A stretch of 35,061 nucleotides of DNA from a virus (IMGVR_UViG_2654587570_000013:1-35061), one strand, 5' to 3'; shown: positions 2,764 through 35,061, numbered from the stretch's first letter. Made by a program: numbers and translations. Notes: a model not told the origin generated them from the letters alone.

Positions 2764-3762
2764 TTAAAGAGCCTCTAAAGGGCTTAAATCGAGTTCTAAG
2801 TCTTCCGGTATTAAATCAGCTAACGGTGCATTCATCCACTGCGATAAATCTCGTTCTATGTCTTCATCACTAATGTAGTTGTTCAGATTGATTGCGTTGG
2901 TATCATCAAAATACATTGGCTTAGATGGGTTGGTGTGGATGTATTCATTGATGAATGATTTAACATCTTTCAGCTTGCTAATCGGTAGCGTTTCTGTGAA
3001 TCCGCTATTCATTACCTTACGTGGGATTTTCTTGCCCTGAATATTCTTTTTAATCCCCATTTCTAAATCACCAGCTTTCCATCCAATGTTAAACAAATGT
3101 GAGCATTCAAAGGTGATTTTCTCGCTGGTGTGCTTCTGGTGTTCTCTTACCCGTTGCATCGGATCTTTGCGAGTGGTAATTCCATATTTGAAAAACTTCT
3201 CGCCAACACGAATTAGATAAAAGTGCATAGAGCGCTGTGCAAACTTGTTTCTGATAACCTGTTTTCTACCATTCTGAATTGATTTAAGTACACCCCTAAC
3301 CAAAGGGCATGTTAACCCACCTTGTCTGCGGTTATTGTGTAAATCACCTTTCTTGTGAATCTTTCCGTGGCACTTACAACGAAGAATTAGTTTAGTGTCA
3401 ACACCCTGATAAGGTTCAGCCAGACCTAACACATCCCACCCTATCGGCTTGTAGAACTTGCGAGCGTTTTCTAAGTGTTCTTCTTCGGTAAATCTAAACT
3501 TCTTCTTAGGCGGTGATACTCTATCTTTGCCAGTAAACTGACCAGTTAGAACATGACTAATACATGGCGTTTTAACCTTTCCGTTAACTTCTATGCAAAC
3601 TTTGGTGTTCTGGAATGGTTTCTTTACAGGAAGCACAAAACCACTGTATAACCATCCATGCGCTTGACAAACTTTAATGATTCTGGTTTCATATTCGACC
3701 GGAGGGGTCGCACGTTTGCTTTTTGCGGTAAATTCGATATCCTTTGCTAAAGTAGTATTCAT
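2764..3762 (-). CDS. putative nuclease with Cys/His zinc-finger-like segment and a GIY-YIG-like motif
   Basis: 332 aa; mid-protein HFYLIRVGEKFFKYGITTRKDPMQRVREH resembles the GIY...YIG...R..H core of GIY-YIG nucleases; upstream CKCHGKIH...C cluster; acidic C-terminus. Confidence 0.45.
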   Translation of the reverse strand: MNTTLAKDIEFTAKSKRATPPVEYETRIIKVCQAHGWLYSGFVLPVKKPFQNTKVCIEVNGKVKTPCISHVLTGQFTGKDRVSPPKKKFRFTEEEHLENARKFYKPIGWDVLGLAEPYQGVDTKLILRCKCHGKIHKKGDLHNNRRQGGLTCPLVRGVLKSIQNGRKQVIRNKFAQRSMHFYLIRVGEKFFKYGITTRKDPMQRVREHQKHTSEKITFECSHLFNIGWKAGDLEMGIKKNIQGKKIPRKVMNSGFTETLPISKLKDVKSFINEYIHTNPSKPMYFDDTNAINLNNYISDEDIERDLSQWMNAPLADLIPEDLELDLSPLEAL

Positions 3763-6178: not shown

Positions 6179-9100
6179 TTAAGAAACAGAAATACCAGTA
6201 GCGGCTTTCTTAGTTACCATTACCGTTAGATCGCTGATATATGCACTTGGGTTATAGTTGTTAACGCCCTTACAGTAAACTTCAAAAGTCATTGTTACTG
6301 CCCCGTGTCCGGCTGGCATGTCAATAACTCCACTGTACATACAGCCAGAAGTTGCAGTGCGATCATATAGAACACCACCATTTTTCTTAACGATTAGTCG
6401 GCAAGTATCCCAATGATCGCTACTTTCGCCACGACGAACAGACCCGTTATGATGAATCGCTGGAATCACTATTTGGCGATCGAATGGATGATCATCTTCG
6501 ACCCTTACAGTGATTGCACCATCAGGCCAGTTTGGTTGGCGATGCGGGAAACTCCTACCAACCACTTTCACGAAGTCACCACGCACCTGATTAGCATCAA
6601 GCATACCCAAAATGCGGCAACTTGAATTAATCGTTACGTTGTTCATTTCGCCGGAATCAGCCACCAAATGACCACGAATATTAGCGTGTCTAAAATGACA
6701 AGTGCCATCTTTGCCGATATACCATCCATCGTTACCATTCCAGTTATAAGACTGGATATAGTTACCAATTTTAGCATTATCGATAGAGCCATCAATGATA
6801 TGACCTGTTCCGATCTGTGCGTGTTGGATGTGAGCGCCGTTAATCTGGGCTGTGCCGATCTTAGCCGTGGTGATACTAGCATCACTAATCTGGGCTGTGC
6901 CAATTGCAGCATTACGAATCATCGCATTATCAAGATAAACTTTGTTATCTTCGATGCCAAACGGACAAACTTCTGATCCGTCTTGTGGAGCTACCGCGAT
7001 TTTATCAGCCGTAAAGATGATTCTTGTCGGTTCTGCCGGATCATTGGTTGCGCTCATATGAATACCAGCCACGCGACCATCTGCATTAACTGCCAGATTA
7101 TATTTGCTGTTAATGGTTCCCTTCAAAGCATCGATTTTTACATCTGCTTCCTGATTCACACCAGCAATCTTGCCATCCATTTCTACCCGAACTTGATCAA
7201 TCTTACTTGCGCTTGCTGCCTCACTGGTAGCAATTGCTTGTTTCAGGGTAGTAGCAGATGCGCTAACTTCTTTGGTGATATCGCCTTTCAGTTCAGCTTT
7301 AACCTGATCAATCTTAGTTGCGCTGGCTTGCTCACTGGTAGCAATCAGACTCTTGAGAGTATCGGCTGAGGCTTGGACCGTCTGCCCTGTCTCGGTAGTA
7401 ATCTGTTTATGCATTGCATCAATCTTAGCATCGGCATTAGCGCCAGCTTGAGCAATAGCATCCGCGATGGTTTCATCTAAGCGATCTTGTAAACCAATCA
7501 GGTCTTCCAGTGCTTCTTTGTCCTGATCGTCCCAGCTAATGGTAGATTTCATTTGCATGAAATACGGTTCAGACCAAACAGCATCATCCATACCGAAAAT
7601 ATCATAGTGAGCACCACGGATATAATAATCACCGTCAGCCAAATCAAAGGAAGTATGACTAACGCTATTGGTAGTCACTGCCCTTGCATCGGAGAAAGTA
7701 TTATCGGTTGCATACTGGATGATTGACCCTGCATAGTCATGTTCTACGTCATCCGCCCAGCTAACAAACGCAGTATTAAAGCCACCACGCGCACTAAAAC
7801 CTTTCATCGGCTTATGTTGTGGGTTGATAGCCACTAAACGCGCTGGGGCGCTCTCTGAGTTGTTATAGCCCTTGACTGATACTTCTACCGTCAATTCACG
7901 GGAAAGGCCGTTAAACTGGTTCATATCAAGCGTATAAGTCCATGATTCAGGATCGCGGGTACGGTACTGAATAGACTTACCAGCCTTGTTAGTCACCTTG
8001 ATAATGTATGCTTCAAACAGGTCACTAAACTTGTTAGCTTCACCGTTGATCATCACATCTAATTGTTGCTGATTTTCCCATTCGATAATCAGATCATTGC
8101 CTTCGAAAGTACCAGGTGAACTACCCTGATTTTTGATTCGAATAACCGGAGTCGGCAATTCATAGGTAACAGTAGGATTCTGGTTAACCAGTTCCACCCA
8201 TTCGGAACGAGCAATAATACCGAAAGCACAAACGCGGTAATCGTAGGAACGATCTTTAGCCAGTGCATTGATATTGAAAATTTGCTGTGAAGTCTGTCCC
8301 AGCTTAATCCAGTTAGGTGATCCACTCACTTTGTAATCAATCTGGAAACCGTAGCGGTTGAAATCTTCCGGTACATCCCATGTCAAAGTTACGTTTTTAC
8401 CGTGGATTGTCTCACCAGTTGCCTTAATTCTGAAATTAGTCGGTTTCTGTACTGTCATTGAATCCGGTAAACCAGTAGGTCTATTGTCTGGATTCGCCGC
8501 ATAGTTCAGGTCAGTATAAACCTGAGAATTATATTCTGTGGCGGTGATAGTCATCATCCCAGCAATACCAGAATCAATAGAGCGATCAATTGCAGTAATA
8601 CGCCAAAGTGAATTATTCAGTTTTAATTCATCATAGGTTACGCTAATAACATCCCAAACTTCGGCAGTGAATGCGTCAGTAGTCATAAAGCTGATAACCT
8701 GAGTGATACGAGATTTATTTCGTTCTACACTCGCTAGTTTATCAATCTGGGCTTTAGACTTAACAAAACGATATTCAATATCTTTAGCGATAATTCGACC
8801 ATCTTGACGAATAGTAGCATCGTTTTCAGCATCAGCCGGATAACGTAGCATTTGCTCTGAATAGTCAATTGATGGTTCTTGATACATCGCGTTAATGGTA
8901 TTGAAATAACCATTAGTGCCACCTGTTTTCAGTGATACTTTTCCCATCATGATATTGTCTTCATTGAAGGTATGCTTAACAATATCAGGAGCATCCAGTT
9001 TCAGAGTAATACGTCCAAAGGATTCGAACATCACCCCGCCGAAAGTCTGCATAAGACTGGTCAAGTTCTCTTTAAAGCTGGCGTTCGGATCACATGCACC

Positions 9101-21545: not shown

Positions 21546-23558
21546 TCATTCAGCGGAGATGTGAAGAACTTTCAGAGCTTCCGGCTGAACTACGGTGAAG
21601 TCCAGGTCTACCCAGATACGCGGAACGATAGCAGACTGTGCGCGGTAAGTGGTGTCGTCCATATCCAGTTCCAGACCACCCCATTCACCGATCATGATAC
21701 CGGAGAAGTCACCCAGAACGATGTGGTCTGCCGGAATAACGCCAGAAGTAACTACATCGTAACCAGCCAGTTTGCCGTTTTCGATGATATAACCGGAAAC
21801 GCCGTTATCTTTCAGGGTAGATTCCAGTTCAGCAGCAGTTGCACCGCTCATTGCAAACTTGATGGACTGTGCCGGAACGCCAGCGTCGGTCAGTGCTGCA
21901 ATTTCTTTCAGGAAGTCTTTGTAAGAGAAAGCAGCTTTCTTAGTAACGCGACCACCGTCTACCAGTTGCTTAACCAAACCTTTCGGACCGCGAGTATTGT
22001 CTTTGTCAGACAGAATCAGTTGTTCCAGTTTGATGCGAACAGCTTTGTTAATATGATCAGTGATCAGGGTAGCAATATTCGGAACAGTTTTCAGAGACTG
22101 ACGGCTGATCGGGTTGCCACCAGCAAAAGTTTTCGGAGCCATTTTCACGTTTTCAAAGGTAGCCTTCGACTCGGGGGCACTTCCATTTTCGTCTACAAAA
22201 CCAAAGGCATCAACGCTGGAAGCAGTCATTTTCGGTACAGCGATCGGGCTATTCAGACCAGACAGGACGGTCACGCCCAGACGACCCAGACACGAAGCAG
22301 GAAGCAGCATTTCGATGTATGATTCAGTCAGCAGTTTTTCGTCAGTTACAGCGGTCAGAGTAGTTTTGGTGTTACCATCAGCAGCAGCACGCAGAGCAGC
22401 AGCCGGAACGAATACAGAGCCACCGCGAGCAGCACGACCACGCTGCATTGCAGCACCAGCAGCCATAGCGGAATATTCAGCTTCGTTAGCACCCAGAGCA
22501 GCACCATCTACCAGAGAGCGAATTACGTTGTTCAGGTCAAAAGTTTTTTCCATTTTAGAGTCCTTAATTTGTTGTTCGTTGTTACGTTGAGCAGTAGCGA
22601 TTTTATTTAGTGCCTTAGTGCGGAATGCTTCCGGCGTAATTTCTTTATTTGCCAATGCGCGTTTAAATTCTTCATCGTCTTCGTTAATATTTAGCTCGCG
22701 AGCGATCTCGCGAATTTCTAATTCGTCTTCTTCGGAACGTTCAGCCACTTCTTCGATTTTTTCTTCTTCAACCGGAGCGGCTTCACGTTCTTCTTTTACT
22801 TCTTCTGCTTCCCGAACAGTTGAACTATCATCATCAACACTTTCAGGATGTTCAGCGTCTTTTCCGTCTTCGAGATTTTCATTTTCTTTATTCTCTTCAA
22901 CTTGGCGCTCTTGAGTTTCTTCAACTTCCGGTTCTTTATTTTCTTCTACCGGAGTTTCTTCAACCTGAGCGGCTTCTTGTTCTTCTTTGATTTCTTCGAT
23001 TTGTTCTTTAGTCATATCGCGTTTAGCCTCCAAATTAACTGTGATAGTATTTAGAGAGCGATTTAAACCGACCGAATCATCAGCAGGAACGGTGACAAAT
23101 GAGAGTTCATAGGGCGCCCACTTAGTAACAATCAATTGCCCTTTGGCGTAATCGATGTGATATTCTTTAATGTCATAGCCGACAGAAATTTTTTCCATCG
23201 TACCTTCAATGACTTTATTGCGAATATCATTAGCCAAAGTGCCATGCTTAGAGAATTTAACCAGAGCACGACCTACGTTATCCGCATCGATTCGAGCGTC
23301 GCAGACTACACCTAAATGATTATCGAAATTATGATTGAACAGCAACGGAGCGTTATTATTCAGACGAGACAGATCAACCGCTTCCGGTGTATGTACCAGA
23401 ATTTCATCTAGTACCACCATCTCTTGATTTTGCTCATCCCAGAATTGGCGCTGATACGGCTGTTCACTGGAGAAAGCAATTTCAAATTCGTATTGATCGT
23501 TATGCCCTTCGTTAATAACTCCACCGTAACCGTTAAGATCGCGGCGAAATTTAAGCAT
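21546..23558 (-). CDS. prohead protease - acidic scaffold-like linker - HK97-fold major capsid protein (single ORF)
   Basis: 670 aa; N-terminal ~170 aa protease-like, central ~150 aa extremely acidic/coiled-coil, C-terminal ~330 aa Ala/Gly-rich capsid-like region; strong codon bias; internal ATG at 22553 has an AAGGA SD. Confidence 0.7.
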   Translation of the reverse strand: MLKFRRDLNGYGGVINEGHNDQYEFEIAFSSEQPYQRQFWDEQNQEMVVLDEILVHTPEAVDLSRLNNNAPLLFNHNFDNHLGVVCDARIDADNVGRALVKFSKHGTLANDIRNKVIEGTMEKISVGYDIKEYHIDYAKGQLIVTKWAPYELSFVTVPADDSVGLNRSLNTITVNLEAKRDMTKEQIEEIKEEQEAAQVEETPVEENKEPEVEETQERQVEENKENENLEDGKDAEHPESVDDDSSTVREAEEVKEEREAAPVEEEKIEEVAERSEEDELEIREIARELNINEDDEEFKRALANKEITPEAFRTKALNKIATAQRNNEQQIKDSKMEKTFDLNNVIRSLVDGAALGANEAEYSAMAAGAAMQRGRAARGGSVFVPAAALRAAADGNTKTTLTAVTDEKLLTESYIEMLLPASCLGRLGVTVLSGLNSPIAVPKMTASSVDAFGFVDENGSAPESKATFENVKMAPKTFAGGNPISRQSLKTVPNIATLITDHINKAVRIKLEQLILSDKDNTRGPKGLVKQLVDGGRVTKKAAFSYKDFLKEIAALTDAGVPAQSIKFAMSGATAAELESTLKDNGVSGYIIENGKLAGYDVVTSGVIPADHIVLGDFSGIMIGEWGGLELDMDDTTYRAQSAIVPRIWVDLDFTVVQPEALKVLHISAE

Positions 23559-23604: not shown

Positions 23605-25116
23605 TTAGGGATCGGCTGGGGAATTTTTTTCTTCACCCTCGCCATCAACGATAATATTTAGTGCGCTCTTTTCGGCTTGAATCTCTGAGAATACTTTTTC
23701 AGGATCATCACCACGTTCAAGAATAACGGCAGTACGTGATTTAAGTCCTTTATCAATTAAAGCAATATCAGCGTTTACGTCTTTAATAACATCGACAGAC
23801 TCGAAACGCGGACGAATAATAGTTGTATTATCGATAATATGTGGAATTGCAGTAATACGAATCGGAACAATACCACGCGCGGAATAATGGCGTAGATACG
23901 CTTCGAAAATTGGCAATACCACTGTTTCAATCAATTTGTTTTGAAGTGCTTTAACGCGGTTACGTTGAAGTAGTTCACCAAAACGTGCGGCGCTGTAATT
24001 TATTTGGCTAGTATCGCCAGTTAAGCCCTGATTGAACACGCCAAGACCCATCGCTATACTCTTGAACATTCCATCATTGAAGCTGTTAAAGTCATCACCA
24101 CTTTGCGATGATTGAATTGACTTGATTGTTGCCCCTTCCGGCAATTCCTGAATAGTACCAGGCGCGAAATCGTGAATAACTTCCGGCGCTTGATATTGGT
24201 CTTCATCTTCACCAGTATCAAAATCGTCACCAGAATCTTTCGGACGCTCGATGAACGCCATGCTACAACTTGAAATTCGTTTATGTACCAGTACAGCTTC
24301 GCGGAATGCGTCTTGATGTGCGATATCCTTAATCACTGGCAGGAAGTCAGTCACACCACGCAGAGATTCAGCCGCAAGTGGTTGATAATAATGGCATACT
24401 TGCGAAGCATCTACGCGATAGTTATCACCTGTGTAGGTCTGAGTCAGTAGGTTGATTTTACGAAACCAGTATGCAACAGGGCGCATTGTGTGTAGGTCAT
24501 ACTCCACACCTTGATATATCGCACGCTCTTTGCTTACTTCACGGTTGAGCGACCAGTCGCACTTATCAGCAGACAGGATAGAAACATTTAACTCATTGTT
24601 TTCTTTAGTTAAAACGATGAAACACTCACCACCCATAACGCGCTCACGTTCAGCCATTACCAGCAGTTCACGGAAGTTAAAGCGACCGTTACGAGAGAAG
24701 CGTTTAGCATTCTGCGCCCACTTCCAGAAAGCATTCTCAATCTGCTTATTCAGTGCGCTATCAAGTTTGCCATTTGATTTAACGATTGATGGCTTCGGAT
24801 CTAGGCCAGTACCTACCACCATATCGGTTATGTATTGCGTGTAGCGACTGCCTACGGAAGTGTTTAAGGCCAGAGTACGACCCTGATCATAAAGGCGCTT
24901 ACCGTTCGATTTGAGAGCCTTATTGAAGGTTCCGGTGATAGTATCTTGTTGAAGCTGTCCATCAATGCGATCACCAACCAGTCCTAAACTCCGAGTCGCC
25001 AAAGATCTCTGGTATTTTTCTACTTGTTTGTCGATGAAAATTTTTGGTTGTTGCTGGCGGTGATTAGTTTTAACTGGAGTTTCTACCGCCTTTTTGCGTC
25101 GAAAAAGATTAAACAT
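23605..25116 (-). CDS. portal protein (lambda gpB family)
   Basis: 503 aa; KSIAMGLGVFNQGLTGDTSQINYSAARFG resembles the conserved lambda portal segment as recalled (IAAGLGVSYEQLSRNYAQMSYSTARAS); located after the terminase gene. Confidence 0.8.
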   Translation of the reverse strand: MFNLFRRKKAVETPVKTNHRQQQPKIFIDKQVEKYQRSLATRSLGLVGDRIDGQLQQDTITGTFNKALKSNGKRLYDQGRTLALNTSVGSRYTQYITDMVVGTGLDPKPSIVKSNGKLDSALNKQIENAFWKWAQNAKRFSRNGRFNFRELLVMAERERVMGGECFIVLTKENNELNVSILSADKCDWSLNREVSKERAIYQGVEYDLHTMRPVAYWFRKINLLTQTYTGDNYRVDASQVCHYYQPLAAESLRGVTDFLPVIKDIAHQDAFREAVLVHKRISSCSMAFIERPKDSGDDFDTGEDEDQYQAPEVIHDFAPGTIQELPEGATIKSIQSSQSGDDFNSFNDGMFKSIAMGLGVFNQGLTGDTSQINYSAARFGELLQRNRVKALQNKLIETVVLPIFEAYLRHYSARGIVPIRITAIPHIIDNTTIIRPRFESVDVIKDVNADIALIDKGLKSRTAVILERGDDPEKVFSEIQAEKSALNIIVDGEGEEKNSPADP

Positions 25117-25693: not shown

Positions 25694-27601
25694 TTAGAAC
25701 GATGTTACCCAACTACGGCCTCTATTTGGAGGTCTGACGATGTTTTGACGTTGCGGTCGTGTGATTGGCTTAGTTTCTTCGATTTGCTCGTTAGATTGCG
25801 ATTTAGGAGCTTTTACGGGTTCTTCGACAACGCGGTTTAAGCTGTCTTTCATTGCAATGAGTTTATCCCATGACATTTTTGAAAGGACGTAGCGAGAAGC
25901 CGCATAGCTATAAACCAGACAGTCGAGAGCCTCGTTTCGGGTACTACCTGGATTTTTCACCCAACGCACGCCAGTAGTAGTACGCTTGATGGATTCACTC
26001 AAAAGCTGATCGAGATAATCATCAGGAACGGTTTCTGATATCTCTAAACCAATATGAGGATTGTCTTTCAGGTTTCTAACCAGCATTTCACGAACAGCAG
26101 ATTTACCAACGTTAACACCCAGCATAAGCAATTCATGACCACCTGTGCGGGTAGGTTTAACCGGAATCACTGGAGCATTACCAGATGAACTACCTTTGAT
26201 CGCGTGTAGGTTCTTCCACTTACCGCAAATACGGTATCCGGCTTGAGTGAATCGACCGTTCGATGTATCAAGGAAGCTGGCGAGCATAGGAACACGATCA
26301 CCCGATACAGTAGTAAATTTGGTTTTATGGAAGTTGATTAATCTATCCCATACAGGGGATTCATATCGTTCACAGTTATGATCGTAAAAGCTGCGGTGAT
26401 CCAGAATGTAAACCTTATCTTTCGCTACACCTAAGATGGTAGTTTCTGCGCGATCTAATTGCTGGTCAGTACCCGCACATAAGAAAATCACGTCATCAGG
26501 GATATTCTCGATAGAAACATCTGTTTTGAGTTGTTCCAGTTCATTTGCTTCTACTGCCGTGTCCTGATCGTCGTATACCTTGCCTAACACGGTGTTAAAA
26601 AAGGATTGTAAATCAAAGGATTGCCACGCATGACTAAAATCAACCACACAAGCGCGAATCGTGCTGAAAGGTGAATACAGACGACTGATCCAGAATCCTG
26701 CTACCTCACTTTCACGGGTTGCTCTCCACTCTCCTTGTGCTACTGCCCTGATTCGTTCCCCTTCTGTCCATGCGTTCTTACAGTGGGGGCAAATATAACG
26801 AGCGGTATCAGGATCGGGTAAGTTCTTACCATCAATGTTACGCCATTCAAATTGAACGTTTTCCCACTCGATCACCTGGTGTCTACCGCAATGAGGACAC
26901 GGAACAAAAAACATACGCATATCGCTTGATAACCATTGCTGGTTAATGCTTCCCAGCTTACTGGTCGGGGTACTGGATACGACTAATCGACCTTCATCGC
27001 CAAAGGTAGTTAAACGGTTAGCAGCCAGTGCCACCGGATCACCTTCTTCTGAGGCTGTGGCAGCATCAATTTCGTCAAGTAATCCAACCTTTGCGGTCTT
27101 ACCACGTAGGGTTGATGGGCTGGTAAGCGATACCATGTACAGGAAGTGATTCGTTTTTAACTGGAGTTGGTTGTTGTTGTTAACCGCGTTGCGATCATTC
27201 TTGTCTGTAACCACGTCTTTCAATGCATCACATGCTTCGATAGACGGTCGGATCTTACCCGCGAGATATTGAGACATTTCTTTAGCGGTTGATTGTCCGA
27301 TAATCATATTGCATGGATCGTTAGCCATCTGGTTAAACAGGATACCGTTTAGGATGGTAGTTTTTCCGATCTGCGCACTGGTCATCAGTACATACTTTTT
27401 CTTATTCTCAAGGAAAGGAGCATCAATCATGCCTTTCTGGAATGACAGCAATTTAACTTTATCCCCCGCTTGAGGACCATCTACCAGCACCATATTCGCT
27501 TCGCACCATTCAGACGGAAGGAGCTTAGGCGGTGGAGTGATATATTTTGCGGCATTTTTAAGAATCTTTTTTAATTTTGCCTTATTAGAAATCAGTTTCA
27601 T
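25694..27601 (-). CDS. terminase large subunit (lambda gpA family)
   Basis: 635 aa; Walker A-like SAQIGKTT; VPCPHCG zinc motif; C-terminal [14 protein letters not shown] resembles lambda gpA RNEALDCFVYALAA as recalled; GAGGGT SD; first gene of the leftward operon. Confidence 0.9.
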
Positions 27602-27688: not shown

Positions 27689-28285
27689 ATGCTAATTAAT
27701 CAGCAAGAAAGAGATGAATTAGCCTTGTCTTGTACCGATCATGAATATCGTTTACCCGTTAAGCATAAGCATTTAAAAACCGATTACACAACATCTGGGT
27801 TTAGCCGTGAGGAAGCGAAAGAGATTTTAATAGAATTTTACCGTGATAATGGCTATAGAGACGTTCATAACTTCTTTAAGAAGCATCGCACATCACAGAC
27901 AGAGTTTCAGCGAGTCCGTGAGTGGTTTGATTTTGATATCAAGCGTTATTATCGCATTGATGACGGTCCTATCTATCGGTTGCAGTGGAAGCCGATCAGG
28001 GAAGTGTTGAAACAGAAGAGATTGAATCACGCAATTACACGCTATCGTAACGAGGCTTTCAAGAAAGGCTATGGTGATACAAGGGAACTATTCGTTGAAC
28101 TCGCTAACGTGAAGTACAGCCACTATTACAACGATCCTAAAGGGTTCTTTGAAGTGCTTCGCAAGGTTGATATAAGTCGGGGTACATATTATTCACGGTT
28201 GAAGAAGTACGGGATTAAGGCAGAGTTCTTTATGTCGGTTGACGATGGAGAACTTTTTCCGATAAAATGTAAGTCCTCTAAATAA
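27689..28285 (+). CDS. protein with two copies of a small HTH-like module (putative DNA-binding regulator)
   Basis: 198 aa; AAGGAGGG SD; two internal segments ([17 protein letters not shown]...FFKK and [17 protein letters not shown]) match the module found in the two small downstream proteins. Confidence 0.5.
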
Positions 28286-28314: not shown

Positions 28315-28548
28315 ATGACTATGACTACTAAAGCTACTCGCGGTCGCCCTACCCGTTTTAATCGTGAACAGATGGCTGATATTGCCTACGCTTACTATAC
28401 AGCGGATCGTGGTAAGGAAGCGAAAGAACAGATTCTTAGTGAACATGGGATCTCAATCGCCCAATTCTATAAGAATATGAAGAAGTTAGACATTAAATTC
28501 TATGTTCAGATCGGTGATGGTCAGATCGTAGAAGCAACAGGTTTTTGA
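28315..28548 (+). CDS. small HTH-like DNA-binding protein (paralogue family)
   Basis: Start placed at ATG 28315 after GGAG; the ORF track starts at a GTG at 28288. RGRPTRFNREQMADIAYAYY ... GISIAQFYKNMKKLDI parallels the 31655 protein. Confidence 0.5.
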   Translation: MTMTTKATRGRPTRFNREQMADIAYAYYTADRGKEAKEQILSEHGISIAQFYKNMKKLDIKFYVQIGDGQIVEATGF

Positions 28549-28734: not shown

Positions 28735-29577
28735 TTACAGTCCGAAGGCTTCCAGAGTTCCGATATTCTTACGAATCAGTGCAGCCGTATTGTTGATAAT
28801 TGCACGAGCATTGTTTGGCTGCGGTAATTTCAAAGTTGCTACCGTCTCTTCCTCAATCAAGCCCAATTTAACCAGCACTGGTAAACAGTCAGTTGTGAAC
28901 TCAAGCTGACCATGTGCTGATTGTCGAGCGTACATGTAAGCAGGAGGAAGAACATCATAGCCGTTAGGCTTACCAGAAGCATCCAGACGACGCTCAATGT
29001 GTTTAGCCTCACATAATCCCTTAAGAATACGTTGTACCTTCGTAGAGCCTCGTTTTTCGCCTAATAAGCGGGTGAGACTGTGTGCGTCAATGGCACGTCT
29101 GATGTGGAGATCAACTAAACGTTTATTTTCGCGGGTTTTCTCTAATGCCAGTTCGATCCAATCGGTTTCTTCAAAGTGTTCATATGGATTAACCGGAACA
29201 TTAGCTTTACCTTCTTTCATCAAACGCCATTCTTTAGCAATTTTGAAGCGAAGCGGTGCATCGTATCCCATAACCAGAGTATTACAGAGATCTTCATCCA
29301 GTTCATACATCGGTTTATTACGATTCAGAGAATCTTTATAAGTCGTTTCTTTATAAAAACCGATGGGCGCAAAATTGCGCTCATCTCCTCCGACCAGTTT
29401 GCTACCCTTTTCAAGCGAATCAACCATATTACGAAAATCACGCATAACATCTTTATGATTCTTTCCGGTTAATTCCGCGATCTGCAAAGTAGACATGGTC
29501 AGCGGTTTGGTGTTATCAACAACCAGAGACACGGAAGCAGGTTTAATAGCAGTATTCATAGTAGTAACAGTATTCAT
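28735..29577 (-). CDS. Rha-family phage regulatory protein / antirepressor-like
   Basis: 280 aa; N-terminal LTMSTLQIAELTGKNHKDVMRDFRNMVDSL matches the Rha-type N-terminal DNA-binding signature. Confidence 0.6.
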   Translation of the reverse strand: MNTVTTMNTAIKPASVSLVVDNTKPLTMSTLQIAELTGKNHKDVMRDFRNMVDSLEKGSKLVGGDERNFAPIGFYKETTYKDSLNRNKPMYELDEDLCNTLVMGYDAPLRFKIAKEWRLMKEGKANVPVNPYEHFEETDWIELALEKTRENKRLVDLHIRRAIDAHSLTRLLGEKRGSTKVQRILKGLCEAKHIERRLDASGKPNGYDVLPPAYMYARQSAHGQLEFTTDCLPVLVKLGLIEEETVATLKLPQPNNARAIINNTAALIRKNIGTLEAFGL

Positions 29578-29666: not shown

Positions 29667-29813
29667 TCATTTAGATTCAGCAATCGCGCGATCAATTTCT
29701 TCTTGAATGCGACGCTGGCGTTCATGGAAGTCAACCATTGAGAAATTCAGGTTTGGGGTCCACGGTTTGCGGTTCGGGTTTTTACGTCCATCAATTTTCT
29801 TAGTAGTGTTCAT
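29667..29813 (-). CDS. small basic protein (48 aa), speculative
   Basis: Translation MNTTKKIDGRKNPNRKPWTPNL...; AAGAGGA SD; lies between a near-consensus promoter and the Rha-like gene. Below the ORF-track cutoff. Confidence 0.35.
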   Translation of the reverse strand: MNTTKKIDGRKNPNRKPWTPNLNFSMVDFHERQRRIQEEIDRAIAESK

Positions 29814-29871
29814 AATTAACATCCTCTTTACAAATCTAGGTCAAATAGGTTCAAAGTTGTCAAGTGCGATA

Positions 29872-29900
29872 ATCATAAAAAAGTTAGAAAATTTTGTCAA
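29872..29900 (-). promoter_or_regulatory. near-consensus sigma70 promoter (leftward)
   Basis: Minus strand reads TTGACA - 17 nt - TATGAT; the -35 element is embedded in a TTGTCAA/TTGACAA inverted repeat. Confidence 0.45.
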
Positions 29901-29935
29901 TGCCCCTTGACAAGCCACCAAAGGGTTGACCTAAC

Positions 29936-30394
29936 TTACAGCATATCTAAGCCTTCATCATGGCCGTAGAAGCCACCGTGAGAAGAGAAACAGATTGGTG
30001 CGTAGTCGTCGTCATCTTCGTCTTGTTCATCTTGTTCTGGGGCTTCCTGAGCGGGTTGTTTGCCGTAATCAGCCATAATCTGGTCAAGATCAGCGATCCC
30101 ATAGTAAGAGCCTAAATCAACGTCATATTCACGAACATCAAACGGCAGGTCATCACGAACAATAATTGCTGGAATATCGTTGTATTGAAGACGACCTTCA
30201 TCAGTAAGACAGTCGATGATCACAGTAGGACGACCATTTCGTTTTAAAGCGTAGAAAGCAGTTGAGTAGTTGGAGTCTTCGGAATGACGAATGATGTTAT
30301 AACCACGATTAGCGAAAACTTCTAGCATATGGAAGTTACCATAGTTTTCAGAGTCCAGACCCAGAAGTACGAAAGGAGTTTTAGTATTGATCAT
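29936..30394 (-). CDS. hypothetical protein with acidic C-terminal tail
   Basis: Start placed at MINTKTP, which has a GAGGA SD; the ORF track extends to 30424. 152 aa with a DEQDEDDDD tail. Confidence 0.5.
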   Translation of the reverse strand: MINTKTPFVLLGLDSENYGNFHMLEVFANRGYNIIRHSEDSNYSTAFYALKRNGRPTVIIDCLTDEGRLQYNDIPAIIVRDDLPFDVREYDVDLGSYYGIADLDQIMADYGKQPAQEAPEQDEQDEDDDDYAPICFSSHGGFYGHDEGLDML

Positions 30395-30967
30395 AGTGGT
30401 ATCCTCTAAAAGAAAGTGAATCAAACAAATTACACTAGTATTTATACGAGAAAAAAATATCTATTTGGAAGTGATTGGATTCAGTCGGCTTCGCCTCCTT
30501 CATGATTTTGATTAAATCATCATCAAAACGAAGGAGTATCTTTAGAATATAAGAATCTTTCTTTTGGAGAAATAATAATCAGGAAGCAATTTGGCAACCG
30601 AAGGTTGCAATCCCGAAGGGATACCAATACCTTTCTAGAAAGTGATTGTTACTCACTTCGTTCGTTTACTAGAATCAGTTAGTAACTAGCATTAAATCCC
30701 TTTCTAAGAAAATCCTTTCAAAAGTGAGTGAACGCCGTAGGCGTGAACGTGAGCGAAGCGAACTATCCAATCCCTTTCGAATCCTGCTTGCAGGTCTTAG
30801 AAGGTGTTGATGGGCGCTTCGCGCACGGCTACGCCGTATTCTTTTTGCGAGATCTTTCTTGAACGTAGTGAGAGAAAACGAGCAAAAAGGAGAACGTTAG
30901 TTCGAATTTTATATTCTATGGTCTGTGGGGTGAAATGTTTTTCAAGATCATACACTTATGAGATTGA

Positions 30968-31090
30968 AGTGTAGGGTTAGTGTAGGTGTGTAGGTTTCAT
31001 AGTGTAGGTTTGAGGGTGTTATAGTGTAGGTTTACTGGCTAGTGTAGTGTAGGCCAATCCCTTTAAAGTGTAGGTTTGTAGTGTAGGGTT
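30968..31090 (+). repeat. array of ~9 direct GTGTAGG(T/G)TT repeats (iteron-like)
   Basis: Copies start at 30969, 30980, 30988, 31002, 31024, 31047, 31068 and 31081, plus a degenerate copy at 31042; all same orientation with irregular 8-23 bp spacing, inside a 1.2-kb ORF-free region. Confidence 0.6.
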
Positions 31091-31284
31091 TTCATCAAAA
31101 ATTTTGATAGAAAATTCTTGTATATTATTTAATCAGAAAATCACCAAAAATCGCGGTAACTGCATGATTTAAAAGGAATGGTCAAAAGGTCACCGTGCTA
31201 TAATAGGTTATAAAGGTTGATAATCGTTATCCGCCATTTTCACACAAAAATTTTGATAGTCTTTTCTCGTTTAGGTCAAGTGTA

Positions 31285-31313
31285 TTGACAACTGTCAAGG
31301 ATTATTTTATACT
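31285..31313 (+). promoter_or_regulatory. near-consensus sigma70 promoter (rightward) with overlapping palindromic operator-like site
   Basis: TTGACA - 17 nt - TATACT; the -35 element is part of the palindrome TTGACA-ac-TGTCAA. Confidence 0.5.
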
Positions 31314-31654: not shown

Positions 31655-31834
31655 ATGGCTAGACCTGTTAAGTTTACTCGTGAAATGATTGTTGATATTG
31701 CTAAACGCTTTTATGGCGATACTGAACGAGGCGGCGAGAATTTCTTTAAGAAGGAAGGAATTGATAGAAGCGGATTCTATAAGTTAATGAAGAAATACGA
31801 AATTCAGATAAAGATTAACGTTCAAGTTTGTTAA
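31655..31834 (+). CDS. small HTH-like DNA-binding protein (paralogue family)
   Basis: Start placed at MARPVKF, which has a TGAGGA SD; the ORF track starts at 31640. ARPVKFTREMIVDIAKRFY ... GFYKLMKKYEI parallels the 28315 protein. Confidence 0.5.
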   Translation: MARPVKFTREMIVDIAKRFYGDTERGGENFFKKEGIDRSGFYKLMKKYEIQIKINVQVC

Positions 31835-31950
31835 TCCACTTTCACTGAGAATTATATGATGGCTTTAAAAATAAAAAGCCTCCCTTGTTGCAGCAAAGGA
31901 GGCTTGAAATGAACAATTAAAACTAACACAGCATTCAGGAGTATTTATAA

Positions 31951-32946
31951 ATGAAAAATTCTAAGCGCATCACCTTCAACCTGTTTATTAAATCCAACGG
32001 CAAACTGAACATTACCGTCATGGAAGGTAAAGCAAGCAAACAAGACAAATCCTTTGAAGTAGTATCCGGTAAGACTCTGACCGAAATGCGTCAGAATGCT
32101 GGCATCAAAGACGGTGCTGAATGGCAGATCACTAACCGTTTCGACAAACGTCACGTTAAACCTACACTGGTAGAAGGTGAATCCGTTTATTGCTTCGCTC
32201 GTGCTGTTAAAGCCGATGAAACTTACTATCTCGCTGTTGTTAAAACTGCTTCCGGCTTCCGTGCTGTAATGCATCACAAGAGCAAGCGTAACGAATACGG
32301 CGTAGAGACCCAGGAAGTCGCAAAACGCTTCCGTACTGTTGCTACCGAATCCACTGTAAAGGATGTTTCTGGTACTGTTAACACCGCTAAAGGCGGTTCC
32401 TTCTACAACCACGCATTACAGGTTACTTCCTCCTTCTTCTGCAAAAAAGAAGCACAGAAAGAAGTTTCTCCGGTAGTAGTTGAAGAAGTTAAAGAAGAAG
32501 TTGCAGTGGTTGAATCTTCCGAAGTTGAAGCACTGAAAGCACGCATTGCTGAACTGGAAGCTGAAAACGCATCTCTGAAAGCTGAACTGGCAGCACAGGA
32601 AACCACTTTCGAAGTAGCAGCGGTTGAAGTTGAAGCAGTTGAAGAAAAATCCATTGATGAAGAACTGGAAGAACTCCTTAACTATCGCTGGGGTGTTGTT
32701 GCAGAAGTAGAACAAGAAGTTGCTCCGGTAGTTGTTCCGGTTGAAGTTGAAAAAGAATCCGCACCTGTTACTAACTTTGAATCCCTGCGCAATAACTTTA
32801 TGGCTAAATTCAAAACCACTTGGGAAGATACCGAAGAAGAACAAGAAGAGATTGAAGTAAACGAAGACGAGATCCGCGAAGCACAGATGGCACTGCATGA
32901 CGCTATCTACGACACCAACTACAGCGCCTACGCATACGCAGCTTAA
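31951..32946 (+). CDS. abundant acidic coiled-coil protein of unknown function (early region)
   Basis: 331 aa; globular N-terminal ~170 aa followed by a Glu/Val/Ala-rich coiled-coil and acidic tail; very strong optimal-codon bias (cgt, ctg, ggt, gaa); AGGAG SD. Confidence 0.7.
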   Translation: MKNSKRITFNLFIKSNGKLNITVMEGKASKQDKSFEVVSGKTLTEMRQNAGIKDGAEWQITNRFDKRHVKPTLVEGESVYCFARAVKADETYYLAVVKTASGFRAVMHHKSKRNEYGVETQEVAKRFRTVATESTVKDVSGTVNTAKGGSFYNHALQVTSSFFCKKEAQKEVSPVVVEEVKEEVAVVESSEVEALKARIAELEAENASLKAELAAQETTFEVAAVEVEAVEEKSIDEELEELLNYRWGVVAEVEQEVAPVVVPVEVEKESAPVTNFESLRNNFMAKFKTTWEDTEEEQEEIEVNEDEIREAQMALHDAIYDTNYSAYAYAA

Positions 32947-32961
32947 TAGAGGGGTGAATCT

Positions 32962-33204
32962 ATGATGAATCAAAACAAAGAATTTCTGGGTAATCTGATG
33001 TTAGAAATTACCAAAATGAAAGAAAGAATGGTAGCGATGGAATCAGAGATTAAAACTCTTAAAGCTGATAATAAGGCGTTGAGAAAGTCCTTAAAGCTGA
33101 TTGATGAGACTAATGCGGTTATGATGGATCATGTATTCCCTGAGTGGCGAAATGAAACTAAACCTACACAACATAAGAAACTTACACTTCGAATTGTTGC
33201 ATAA
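32962..33204 (+). CDS. small coiled-coil protein
   Basis: 80 aa; AGAGGGG SD; heptad-like pattern (MKERMVAMESEIKTLKADNKALRKSLK). Confidence 0.5.
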   Translation: MMNQNKEFLGNLMLEITKMKERMVAMESEIKTLKADNKALRKSLKLIDETNAVMMDHVFPEWRNETKPTQHKKLTLRIVA

Positions 33205-33904: not shown

Positions 33905-34456
33905 TTAAGACACATCAAATTCATCGTCTTCTTCTGGTTCTTGTTCCGGTTCATCCATTAATGGTAATTCTTCTTCCTCGTCTTCTCCTAAATCCGCATT
34001 TTCGAACAAGTCCCCTACTTCATTTAAACGACGCTCGATGATCTCCCTTAGCTTATTCTTCAATGTTTTCTGGTCGGTGGCAGATTCAAGAATTTCTAAA
34101 GCGTCGATTGTGGCGATCTGCAAAATAGTCTGTTTCACCTTCCCGCAATATTCCGCTAGTTCCTGCTCAACATACCCGACCGGAATCAGGAGGTTCATTG
34201 CTTCCTGGTTCTCTCGTTCGGCTGCATCTGCTAATGCTCTCTCACGGCGTAATTTCTCTACGTCGATTTGTTCCTTGACAGTAGTTTCCCTGAGTGGACT
34301 GATGATATTTTTTGCTACCCACTCGGTCCCCTCTTTGAGTGGCACGCGGCGGGTATTGGTATTGTAAGGTAGTCCCCTTTCTAACCATTTCTTAGCGGCG
34401 TTAATTGTATAGCCGTATAAGCGGGAAATTTCTGTAAGGGTTAATTCTTCTTTCAT
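33905..34456 (-). CDS. HTH DNA-binding protein with acidic C-terminal tail (Nu1/terminase-small-subunit-like N-terminus; alternatively a regulator)
   Basis: 183 aa; N-terminal LTLTEISRLYGYTINAAKKWLERGLPY resembles the Nu1-type HTH; central coiled coil; DEEEELPLMDEPEQEPEEDDEFD tail. Confidence 0.5.
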   Translation of the reverse strand: MKEELTLTEISRLYGYTINAAKKWLERGLPYNTNTRRVPLKEGTEWVAKNIISPLRETTVKEQIDVEKLRRERALADAAERENQEAMNLLIPVGYVEQELAEYCGKVKQTILQIATIDALEILESATDQKTLKNKLREIIERRLNEVGDLFENADLGEDEEEELPLMDEPEQEPEEDDEFDVS

Positions 34457-34755
34457 CCGGTTATCCTCCTTTAAATTTGCGTAAAATTATTTATCTGATC
34501 TGCGCATTCAGGAGAGCGCCTAAAACGCTTTATAACGAAGGGAAAGATCGAGGCATGGAAAGGGATTGGCGTGTGTTAATAGTCGCGTAGCGACCGCGCT
34601 GGTGGGCTGCACTGCACCTGTTTTGAAATCTCACACGCACATCAAATACCGGGGTGCCGAAAACTCCCTTTATTTCACCCGTGGAACAGTACCTTTTGAT
34701 TTTGTCAAGTCTTTTTTATAAATAATCGAAAATATTTTTCACACGAGGGCAAATC

Positions 34756-35061
34756 ATGAAGACTAAAGATATTAAGATTGAATTTGAAACTGTTGATGAC
34801 GTTCGGGAACATCGCATTGATTCTACTGGCTGCATCTTCCAGCTTACTAACTCCCCTATTGGATTGATTATCTATGTAGCAGAAGATGACGTGTACGCTA
34901 TATGGGATGGACAGGATGAGTTTAAAGGCGGGAATAGCCATCTGATCAATACTCATGAGGGATTTGATCCGACTCCTGTCTGTATGCTTGCTTATCACGT
35001 AACACTGGATGAACTACCGGAAGCAAGCGCGCGTATCCGTAGAATGAAAGACATTAAGTGA
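34756..35061 (+). CDS. hypothetical protein
   Basis: 101-aa ORF with AGGG SD and an upstream TTGTCAAG-containing promoter-like region; ends at the window edge with a stop codon. Confidence 0.45.
   Translation: MKTKDIKIEFETVDDVREHRIDSTGCIFQLTNSPIGLIIYVAEDDVYAIWDGQDEFKGGNSHLINTHEGFDPTPVCMLAYHVTLDELPEASARIRRMKDIK

What the first reader, a model, noticed from the sequence alone, without database searches (positions are those of the whole stretch)
29857..31300. Recurring TTGTCAAG / CTTGACAA motif at early promoters
Exact TTGTCAAG copies occur at 29857-29864 and 34702-29924 is not a range: the exact copies are at 29857-29864, on the minus strand at 29916-29924, and at 34702-34709. One-mismatch copies occur at 29894-29901 and 31292-31300, where the motif forms the palindrome TTGACA-ac-TGTCAA over a -35 element. 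All copies are intergenic, and I would expect roughly one 8-mer hit by chance in this window. This may be a shared operator for a repressor, or an extended -35 element of a co-regulated early promoter class.
Basis: seen in the sequence. Interest (0 to 1): 0.45.

Follow-up and report, generated by a model that had tools for sequence, protein, structure and literature searches.

The report
Operator-like boxes at two prophage promoters
The repeated TTGTCAAG motif marks the two strongest host-type promoters of an unstudied E. coli prophage: some copies are the promoters' own -35 elements, and the others are conserved flanking boxes that look like repressor binding sites, which is an ordinary kind of phage control region in a new phage family.

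Summary
The motif is real, but its count is not above chance. There are 4 exact copies against 1.67 expected, and 9 of 100 shuffles reach 4. One coordinate was wrong (29906-29913, not 29916-29924), and a coding copy at 3663-3670 was missed.

The signal lies in where the copies sit and how well they are conserved.
- The window is a roughly 35-kb prophage that inserts into ycdX of E. coli, with relatives in Salmonella and Proteus.
- Its only two near-consensus sigma-70 promoters are P_B (minus strand, -35 at 29900-29895) and P_A (plus strand, -35 at 31285-31290). Each -35 hexamer is one motif copy.
- The other copies are halves of a bipartite element, TAGGTCAA-N13-TGTCAAG. It is exact three times, against 0 in 200 shuffles.
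- Two copies lie inverted on either side of the P_B core promoter. The third lies over the -35 and spacer of P_A.
- In 26 E. coli-type relatives, 3 of 36 box columns vary against 40 of 77 other columns (p=4e-6).
- TGTCAAG and the box at +2..+10 also persist in Salmonella, where the -10 hexamer has changed.

Best reading: these are operators for a prophage-encoded DNA-binding protein that shuts off both early promoters. That is inferred, not shown. The binder is unknown; an orphan tandem helix-turn-helix-like protein (27689-28285) is only a candidate. This is a new member of a known kind, of modest interest.

The parts
29872..29900 (-). P_B core promoter. The inferred start is near 29865. It drives the 51-aa ORF 29667-29822 and the Rha-family gene 28735-29577.
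   Evidence: Consensus scan gives 11 of 12. It is one of only two such sites in the window. The -35 is conserved in E. coli and Salmonella relatives, while the -10 changes to TAACAT, TAGCAT or TATCAT. The start site is inferred, not mapped.
29906..29933 (-). Upstream bipartite element of P_B: TAGGTCAA (29933-29926) - N13 - TGTCAAG (29912-29906), at about -68 to -41. It contains the minus-strand TTGTCAAG copy.
   Evidence: Exact match. Both boxes are invariant in 26 E. coli-type sequences while the N13 varies. TGTCAAG is invariant in Salmonella as well, while the left box becomes GATCAC or AATCAC.
29837..29864 (+). Downstream bipartite element of P_B, inverted relative to the upstream one: TAGGTCAA (29837-29844) - N13 - TGTCAAG (29858-29864). 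On the transcribed strand it reads CTTGACA at +2..+8 and TTGACCTA at +22..+29. The upstream and downstream elements share a dyad centre near 29885, in the middle of the promoter spacer.
   Evidence: Exact match. N13 differs among relatives, for example ATATAATAAAAGT and ATATGATCAAGGT. TTGACA stays 8 bp after the -10 in all E. coli and Salmonella relatives. No usable -10 follows it (sequence).
31285..31313 (+). P_A core promoter: -35 TTGACA at 31285-31290, a 17-bp spacer, and -10 TATACT at 31308-31313. It is followed by a roughly 335-nt leader and then ORFs 31655-31834, 31951-32946 and 32962-33204.
   Evidence: Consensus scan gives 11 of 12. It is conserved in 12 related loci and in Salmonella L027 and L031.
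31272..31299 (+). Bipartite element over P_A: TAGGTCAA (31272-31279, about -48..-41) - N13, which contains the -35 - TGTCAAG (31293-31299, about -27..-21).
   Evidence: Exact match. In relatives the two hexamers are kept while the central dinucleotide varies: AC, TC, TG, GG. The left box varies: TAGGTCAA, TAGATCAT, GAATCAC.
34702..34709 (+). Site C: a lone TTGTCAAG with no left box 19 bp upstream. It lies 8 nt before a TATAAATA at 34717-34724 that precedes ORF 34756-35061, and 245 bp upstream of the divergent small-terminase-like gene 33905-34456.
   Evidence: The octamer is kept in 17 related loci and in Salmonella, and the sequences diverge into at least four unrelated cargo modules immediately after it. 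Its function is unresolved.
3663..3670 (-). Fourth exact TTGTCAAG, inside ORF 2764-3762. It is treated as a chance copy.
   Evidence: It is coding, with no partner box and no promoter.
27689..28285 (+). Candidate binder (inference only): a 198-aa orphan protein with two tandem domains, each of three helices plus a beta-hairpin, at residues ~38-98 and ~131-190. The domains are paralogous to the small proteins at 28321-28548 and 31655-31834.
28321..28548 (+). 75-aa single-domain paralogue, co-transcribed with the 198-aa gene. It is another possible box-binding protein.
31655..31834 (+). 59-aa single-domain paralogue, the first gene of the P_A operon. It is a possible Cro-like counterpart.
   Evidence: 37% identity to the 75-aa protein, E 9e-11. 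No other evidence.

Best explanation
The window is a roughly 35-kb prophage of a family that inserts into ycdX.

The promoters. It has two near-consensus sigma-70 promoters, P_B (leftward) and P_A (rightward). Host RNA polymerase should use them without help, so a silent prophage must keep them shut.

The boxes.
- The TTGTCAAG/CTTGACAA copies are of two kinds. Two are the -35 hexamers themselves. The others are protein-binding boxes (operators) built on the same TTGACA-like core.
- The binding unit is bipartite: a lineage-specific left box (TAGGTCAA in E. coli types), 13 unconstrained bp, and an invariant right box, TGTCAAG.
- At P_A one unit lies over the -35 and spacer, so a bound protein would exclude polymerase.
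- At P_B two inverted units lie on either side of the core promoter, at about -68..-41 and +2..+29. There a bound protein would block upstream contacts and promoter escape. The two units might also be bridged, trapping the promoter in a small loop.

The binder. It is most likely encoded by the prophage. By elimination the best candidate is the 198-aa tandem helix-turn-helix-like protein, whose two domains would match the two boxes.

Shown: the sequences, their positions relative to the promoter consensus, and their selective conservation.
Inferred: that the promoters fire, that a protein binds the boxes, that binding represses, and which protein binds.
For: 1. P_A and P_B are the only 11-of-12 sigma-70 matches on either strand of the 35-kb window.
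2. TAGGTCAA-N13-TGTCAAG is exact three times, always with a 13-bp gap and with unrelated N13 sequences. It occurred 0 times in 200 shuffles.
3. The two P_B units share one dyad centre, at 29885, in the promoter spacer (sequence).
4. Among 26 distinct E. coli-type sequences, 3 of 36 box columns vary against 40 of 77 other intergenic columns (Fisher p=3.7e-6). With Salmonella added, box 2 varies at 0 of 7 columns and box 4 at 1 of 7, while the -10 varies at 6 of 6 and other columns at 68 of 77.
5. The P_B intergenic DNA is 88-96% identical in loci where the adjacent 153-aa protein is only 58-61% identical, and where the first downstream gene has been swapped.
6. In P_A relatives both hexamers of TTGACA-NN-TGTCAAG are kept while the central bases vary.
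7. Left boxes change by lineage (GGTCAA, GATCAC, AATCAC) at the same 13-bp distance, in both P_A and P_B of Salmonella L027.
8. None of the extra boxes has a usable -10 at 16-19 bp on either strand (sequence).
9. Across IMG/VR the inverted pair occurs only in this prophage family, in 29 loci. The single hits are chance matches or coding repeats.
10. The prophage encodes four copies of one orphan three-helix domain in three proteins, and no CI/Cro-type repressor was detected.
Against: - No experimental evidence exists: no mapped start sites and no binding data.
- The octamer count is within chance.
- The bipartite pattern was defined after looking at the data.
- All relatives belong to one family, so some conservation reflects shared ancestry.
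- About half of the E. coli relatives carry a different P_A module. There the TTGACA copies are simply the -35 hexamers of two tandem consensus promoters, and no bipartite element is present. The boxes are therefore not indispensable at that position.
- The downstream left box is absent from most Salmonella types, where that stretch is the ribosome-binding region.
- The 19-bp start-to-start spacing is not a whole number of helical turns.
- A predicted correlation between a recognition-helix residue and the left-box type failed when tested on new loci.
- The candidate binder at only 52% identity still sits with identical boxes.
Confidence: 0.55

Rival explanations
1. Nothing beyond promoters. 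The motif is the sigma-70 -35 consensus TTGACA with chance flanks. The extra copies are decayed or auxiliary -35 hexamers, and the conservation is hitch-hiking in a recently spread, recombining family.
For: - The octamer count is within chance, and TTGAC[AC] is not enriched overall.
- Two copies are genuine -35 hexamers.
- In the alternative P_A module, both TTGACA copies are -35 elements of tandem promoters.
Against: - The boxes are far less variable than the intervening bases in the same alignment (p=4e-6), and less variable than the -10 across genera.
- The left box TAGGTCAA has no -35 meaning, yet it recurs three times exactly at one fixed distance.
- No -10 follows the extra boxes on either strand.
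- Five hexamers within 100 bp were never reached in 200 shuffles.
Confidence: 0.15
2. The P_B-upstream boxes are arms of a hairpin. Box 1 (GGTCAAC) pairs with the -35 region (GTTGAC), and CCCTTTGG pairs with TCAAGGGG. The hairpin would act as a terminator or RNA element at the end of the 153-aa gene, or as a DNA cruciform, rather than as protein sites.
For: The predicted RNA hairpin has a free energy of -13.6 to -19.9 kcal/mol in five lineages, with z-scores down to -4.7. There is one compensatory C-G to A-U change, in L008.
Against: - The covariation measures equal the shuffled controls: 87.8% of cells paired against 87.7%, and one double change.
- There is no U-tract next to the stem.
- A hairpin does not explain the downstream unit, whose boxes are direct repeats on the transcript.
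- It does not explain the same bipartite unit at P_A.
- Pairing is expected anyway from inverted TTGACA-type boxes.
Confidence: 0.1
3. A host regulator binds the boxes. For example, a CRP/FNR-family dimer could bind the P_A palindrome TTGAC-N4-GTCAA, which would tie prophage early transcription to host physiology.
For: - The P_A site has the 5-4-5 layout of the FNR consensus TTGAT-N4-ATCAA (the consensus is from general knowledge). It matches 8 of 10 positions, and its central four bases vary in relatives while the half-sites are kept.
- The boxes stay constant while every prophage protein diverges.
Against: - No such palindrome exists at P_B. There the hexamers are arranged GTCAA-N6-TTGAC, or as direct repeats.
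- The lineage-specific left boxes argue for a partner that co-evolves with the prophage.
- No known E. coli regulator consensus that I could recall matches TAGGTCAA-N13-TGTCAAG. This was not tested against a regulator database.
Confidence: 0.08
4. The bipartite element is itself a promoter for an alternative sigma factor or a phage-directed polymerase.
For: It is a two-block motif at fixed spacing upstream of genes, and two of the three copies point in the direction of the adjacent operon.
Against: - The third copy (29837-29864, plus strand) points against P_B, into the antisense strand of the 153-aa gene.
- A 13-bp gap between the blocks fits no sigma family I know.
- No sigma-like or polymerase gene was detected.
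Confidence: 0.03

Closest known systems
Lambdoid OR/OL operator sets (CI/Cro) - from general knowledge
   Same: Several copies of one short site overlap the strong early promoters that diverge from a control region of a temperate phage. Site sequence is conserved while the flanking DNA and neighbouring genes are mosaic.
   Different: - The individual sites here are not 17-bp dyads but bipartite direct half-sites 19 bp apart.
- No CI-type (HTH_3 plus S24) or Cro-type protein was detected.
- P_A and P_B lie 1.4 kb apart, not back to back. A gene and an iteron-rich non-coding region lie between them.
P2-type immunity: C repressor binding two direct repeats that flank the -10 of Pe, and Cox/Apl proteins binding arrays of direct repeats - from general knowledge
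   Same: The half-sites are directly repeated about two helical turns apart around a core promoter, and the candidate binders are small winged helix-like proteins.
   Different: - There is no sequence similarity to C, Cox or Apl (no Pfam or PHROG hit).
- Here two such units are inverted around the promoter.
- Start-to-start spacing is 19 bp rather than about 22 bp.
Promoter-flanking operator pairs that repress by looping (GalR OE/OI, DeoR) - from general knowledge
   Same: The sites lie upstream and downstream of the core promoter and are symmetric about it.
   Different: The separation here is only about 50-90 bp, no looping has been shown, and the binder is unknown.
Bipartite two-HTH DNA-binding domains (Tc3 transposase, CENP-B, Pax paired domain, MarA/SoxS)

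Membership tests
Sigma-70 promoter | A TTGACA-like -35, a 16-18 bp spacer, a TATAAT-like -10, upstream of a gene on the same strand | tested here: met
   P_B is TTGACA-17-TATGAT and P_A is TTGACA-17-TATACT, both 11 of 12. They are the only such sites in the window, and genes follow on the same strand.
Sigma-70 promoter | Transcription starts 6-8 nt after the -10 | not testable with these tools
   No transcript data are available. The starts near 29865 and 31320 are inferred.
Extended -35 promoter class | The motif sits in one fixed register at the -35 of each promoter of the class | tested here: not met
   Of the nine TTGAC[AC]-type boxes at the three loci (five at P_B, three at P_A, one at site C), only the two at 29895-29900 and 31285-31290 are -35 hexamers. 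The others lie at about -68, -47, +2 and +22 of P_B, about -48 and -27 of P_A, and at site C.
Phage repressor operator set | Repeated sites overlap or flank the early promoters at positions that would block polymerase | tested here: met
   One unit lies over the -35 and spacer of P_A, and units lie at -68..-41 and +2..+29 of P_B.
Phage repressor operator set | The sites are under selection independently of the surrounding DNA | tested here: met
   3 of 36 box columns vary against 40 of 77 others (p=3.7e-6). Boxes 2 and 4 are kept in Salmonella while the -10 changes. The N13 is diverse.
Phage repressor operator set | A cognate repressor is encoded nearby and binds the sites | not testable with these tools
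   No CI/Cro-type protein was found. The orphan HTH-like proteins at 27689-28285, 28321-28548 and 31655-31834 are only candidates.
Phage repressor operator set | Operator and repressor specificity change together between immunity types | tested here: inconclusive
   The left box changes by lineage, but no protein or residue tracks it. The one predicted correlation failed on L101 and L102.
CRP/FNR-type site | A 5-4-5 palindrome, TTGAT-N4-ATCAA, at every regulated promoter | tested here: not met
   Only P_A has TTGAC-N4-GTCAA (8 of 10). P_B and site C have no such palindrome.
Intrinsic terminator or structured RNA | A stable stem followed by a U-tract, with the stem supported by compensatory changes | tested here: not met
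   A stem is predicted, but no U-tract adjoins it and covariation equals the shuffled control.

The most novel reading that the evidence does not exclude
The boxes are the operators of a previously undescribed immunity system. An orphan family of tandem three-helix proteins, the 198-aa protein and its 59- and 75-aa single-domain paralogues, would replace CI/Cro. It would read bipartite direct half-sites, and inverted pairs of those sites would clamp the core promoter.

The setting is a ycdX-integrating prophage family of E. coli, Salmonella and Proteus. Most of its other transcription units carry a T4-late-like TATAAATA element instead of a -35/-10 promoter.
Probability: 0.2. Interest if true: 0.5.

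Novelty: new member of a known kind. Interest (0 to 1): 0.33.

Why it matters
If correct, this defines the control region of a prophage family found in about 1% of complete E. coli genomes (58 of 5426), and also in Salmonella and Proteus. The family has no cultured relative: the best large-terminase match is 45% identical.

It would give two promoters, a set of operator boxes and three candidate regulators, which are concrete handles for asking how this prophage stays silent and how it is induced.

The principle itself, a repressor sitting on early promoters, is textbook. Only the site architecture and the orphan candidate binders would be new.

Tried and rejected
- Near-identity search of phage records and plasmids found no match. 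A distant search found only a 75-bp match to RB49-like phages.
- The scan of GTDB species-representative genomes with the 153-aa protein found no relative.
- Rfam and tRNA scans of the window found nothing.
- Literature searches for the motif strings and for ycdX prophages returned nothing relevant.
- I looked for the binder through co-variation. The residue after YY in the second-domain helix seemed to track the left-box type in seven loci. The prediction failed on new loci L101 and L102, so it is rejected.
- I looked for the candidate binder in other phage backgrounds. All 33 IMG/VR relatives belong to this same family, so no independent test was possible.
- I scanned IMG/VR for the bipartite pattern to find other phage families that share it. 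Hits outside the family are single chance matches or a coding repeat.
- I tested the extra boxes as -35 elements of further promoters on either strand. No acceptable -10 lies at 16-19 bp, in E. coli or Salmonella versions.
- The hairpin or terminator reading has no covariation support.
- IHF, LexA, DnaA and other host consensus sites, recalled from memory, do not fit the boxes. This was not checked against a database.

Full report
**What the window is**

The large ORFs on the minus strand encode:
- a lambda-type large terminase (25694-27601);
- a portal (23605-25116);
- a fused protease and capsid protein (21546-23558);
- tail and tail-fibre proteins.

A large serine recombinase lies at 996-2690. 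No phage record is similar at the DNA level, and the best large-terminase match is 45% identical.

The region of the finding is 84-96% identical to chromosomal DNA of 58 of 5426 complete E. coli genomes. In strain UTME-9 the element ends next to a truncated ycdX. Related elements beside a PHP-domain (ycdX) gene occur in Salmonella and Proteus.

The window is therefore a roughly 35-kb ycdX-integrating prophage of an undescribed family. It has no recognisable CI/Cro, replication or lysis genes in the libraries searched.

**Checking the observation**

- Exact TTGTCAAG occurs four times: 3663-3670 (-), 29857-29864 (+), 29906-29913 (-) and 34702-34709 (+).
- The one-mismatch copies at 29894-29901 and 31292-31299, and the palindrome TTGACA-AC-TGTCAA at 31285-31298, are as described.
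- Four copies against 1.67 expected is reached by 9 of 100 shuffles. With one mismatch the count is 41 against 37 expected. The 8-mer frequency alone is therefore unremarkable.

**What the copies are**

A consensus scan finds only two 11-of-12 sigma-70 matches in the whole window.
- P_B is on the minus strand: TTGACA at 29900-29895, 17 bp, TATGAT at 29877-29872. It precedes a 51-aa ORF and a Rha-family gene.
- P_A is on the plus strand: TTGACA at 31285-31290, 17 bp, TATACT at 31308-31313. It precedes a roughly 335-nt leader and three ORFs.

Two motif copies are these -35 hexamers. Reading the rest in context shows that TGTCAAG is always the right half of a longer unit, TAGGTCAA-N13-TGTCAAG. 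The unit is present three times with no mismatch and always with a 13-bp gap:
- on the minus strand at 29933-29906, about -68..-41 of P_B;
- on the plus strand at 29837-29864, which is +2..+29 of P_B read in reverse;
- on the plus strand at 31272-31299, across the -35 and spacer of P_A.

The three N13 stretches are unrelated. The two P_B units are inverted about a common centre at 29885, the middle of the promoter spacer.

In 200 dinucleotide-preserving shuffles the exact pattern never occurred. No shuffle had more than three TTGAC[AC] hexamers in 100 bp, against five observed. The pattern was found post hoc, so I rely more on the comparative evidence below.

**Comparative evidence**

Twenty-four IMG/VR loci, one annotated E. 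coli locus and eleven loci found through homologues of the 198-aa protein were compared.
- The P_B intergenic DNA is 88-96% identical to the window in all 24 IMG/VR loci. This holds even where the adjacent 153-aa protein is only 58-61% identical, and where the first downstream gene is replaced right at its start codon.
- Within that DNA, variation avoids the boxes. In 26 distinct E. coli-type sequences, 3 of 36 box columns vary against 40 of 77 other columns (Fisher p=3.7e-6).
- With five Salmonella sequences added, box 2 (TGTCAAG) varies at 0 of 7 columns, box 4 at 1 of 7 and the -35 at 2 of 6. The -10 varies at 6 of 6 and other columns at 68 of 77.
- The N13 spacers come in many versions.
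- At P_A the hexamers of TTGACA-NN-TGTCAAG are kept, while the two central bases vary: AC, TC, TG, GG.
- The left box is lineage-specific (GGTCAA, GATCAT, GATCAC, AATCAC) but stays 13 bp from TGTCAAG. In Salmonella L027 both P_A and the upstream P_B unit carry AATCAC.
- A scan of IMG/VR for the exact bipartite pattern finds the inverted pair in 29 loci, all of this family. The remaining hits are single chance matches or a coding repeat.

**Limits of that evidence**

- About half of the E. coli relatives carry a different module in place of P_A. There two TTGACA hexamers 28 bp apart are simply the -35 elements of tandem consensus promoters, and there is no bipartite unit.
- In most Salmonella types the downstream left box is replaced by the ribosome-binding region.
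- The Proteus relative lacks P_B. Its P_A has diverged boxes, TAGCACAA-N13-AAGCAAG.
- The universal core is therefore TGTCAAG upstream of the -35, the -35 itself, and TTGACA 8 bp after the -10. The left boxes are an accessory that varies by lineage.

**Mechanism**

Near-consensus promoters in a prophage need to be held off. The boxes sit where a bound protein would do that: over the -35 and spacer at P_A, and on both sides of the core promoter, including +2..+10, at P_B.

None of the extra boxes has a usable -10 on either strand, in E. coli or Salmonella versions. They are therefore not further promoters.

I conclude, with about 55% confidence, that the boxes are operators for a prophage-encoded DNA-binding protein that represses both early promoters.

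**Who binds is open**

- The 198-aa protein (27689-28285) is transcribed on its own between the late genes and the P_B operon. It contains two copies of a domain that also forms the 75-aa (28321-28548) and 59-aa (31655-31834) proteins.
- AlphaFold2 models show three helices plus a beta-hairpin per domain, with pLDDT 72 and 81.
- A two-domain protein would fit a two-box site, but that is only a fit.
- A homologue of only 52% identity sits with identical boxes.
- A predicted link between one residue and the left-box type failed on new loci.
- The protein occurs only in this family, so there is no independent context in which to test it.

**Rival explanations**

- 'Only -35 hexamers plus chance' is contradicted by the selective conservation, and by the left box, which has no promoter meaning.
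- A hairpin pairing box 1 with the -35 region is predicted, at -13.6 to -19.9 kcal/mol. It has no adjacent U-tract and no covariation beyond shuffled controls. It also cannot explain the other two units.
- The P_A palindrome has the 5-4-5 layout of an FNR-type site, TTGAC-N4-GTCAA. P_B has none.
- A promoter for an alternative sigma factor is unlikely, because one unit points the wrong way.

**The third locus (34702)**

This locus is different. It is a lone TTGTCAAG with no left box, and it is kept in 17 related loci and in Salmonella. The sequences diverge into at least four unrelated cargo modules immediately after it. In the window it lies 8 nt before a TATAAATA that precedes the next gene. 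It may be a single operator half-site, or part of the conserved region upstream of the small-terminase-like gene. I could not decide between these.

**Verdict**

The operator interpretation is the best supported but remains unproven. The feature is an ordinary kind of element, operators at the early promoters of a temperate phage, in an uncharacterised prophage family. Interest is modest.

Noticed in passing
window 658, 3797, 29645, 30439, 31383, 31583, 31942, 33890, 34717 (start coordinates of the 8-mer): TATAAATA, the same octamer as the T4 late-promoter consensus, occurs 9 times against 2.6 expected (0 of 100 shuffles reach 9). All copies are intergenic, and eight of the nine point at a gene start about 20-110 nt downstream. 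A longer form, TTTTTCNNNTATAAATAC, is exact three times. The same octamer is mostly intergenic in Salmonella (5 of 6) and Proteus (6 of 7) relatives. It looks like a second, -35-less promoter class for most transcription units of this prophage.
   Followed up: partly
window 31868-31950, minus strand: A TATAAATA at 31949-31942 (minus strand) points at the minus-strand terminator-like hairpin 31905-31876. Together they predict a roughly 65-nt RNA antisense to the 5' untranslated region of ORF 31951-32946. The promoter element is conserved in Salmonella L027.
   Followed up: no
window 30960-31095; also 32158, 33160, 33178; L026 12860-13130: Seven to eight direct repeats of AGTGTAGGKTT lie in non-coding DNA (10 matches against 0.8 expected), with further copies inside ORFs 31951-32946 and 32962-33204. 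In the Proteus relative the same position holds about 17 copies of a different repeat, GCTAGGGATG. These are iteron-like repeats that differ between lineages, probably a replication origin or another protein-loading site.
   Followed up: partly
window 30430-30900: About 470 bp of non-coding DNA is packed with short GC-rich hairpins with GAAG, GTAG, TTCG and TACG loops, including GCGAAGC, which is known from the literature as a very stable DNA mini-hairpin. It also holds repeats of CCAATCCCTTT, exact at 30767, 31054 and 34559 (minus strand). The layout, but not the sequence, is kept in Salmonella and Proteus. There is no Rfam match.
   Followed up: partly
window 30507-30584: A 75-bp stretch is about 80% identical to unannotated intergenic DNA of RB49-like T4-type phages, in 57 phage records.
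   Followed up: no
window 34570-34640: A GC-rich segment with the palindrome GTCGC-GTA-GCGAC lies upstream of the small-terminase-like gene 33905-34456 and is conserved in Salmonella L027. It is a candidate packaging (cos) site. The small- and large-terminase genes are 6 kb apart, separated by the early region.
   Followed up: no
window 27689-28285, 28321-28548, 31655-31834: An orphan domain family of three helices plus a beta-hairpin is present four times in three proteins of this prophage. It has no Pfam, PHROG or PDB sequence match. Homologues occur only in this prophage family, in E. coli, Shigella, Salmonella and Proteus.
   Followed up: partly
L003-L024 (alternative module), e.g. L004 reverse strand around 7358-7420: About half of the E. 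coli relatives replace P_A with two overlapping consensus promoters 28 bp apart, TTGACA-17-TATA(A/C)T then TTGACA-17/18-TATAAT. These lie directly after the iterons, and one iteron sits in the first spacer.
   Followed up: partly
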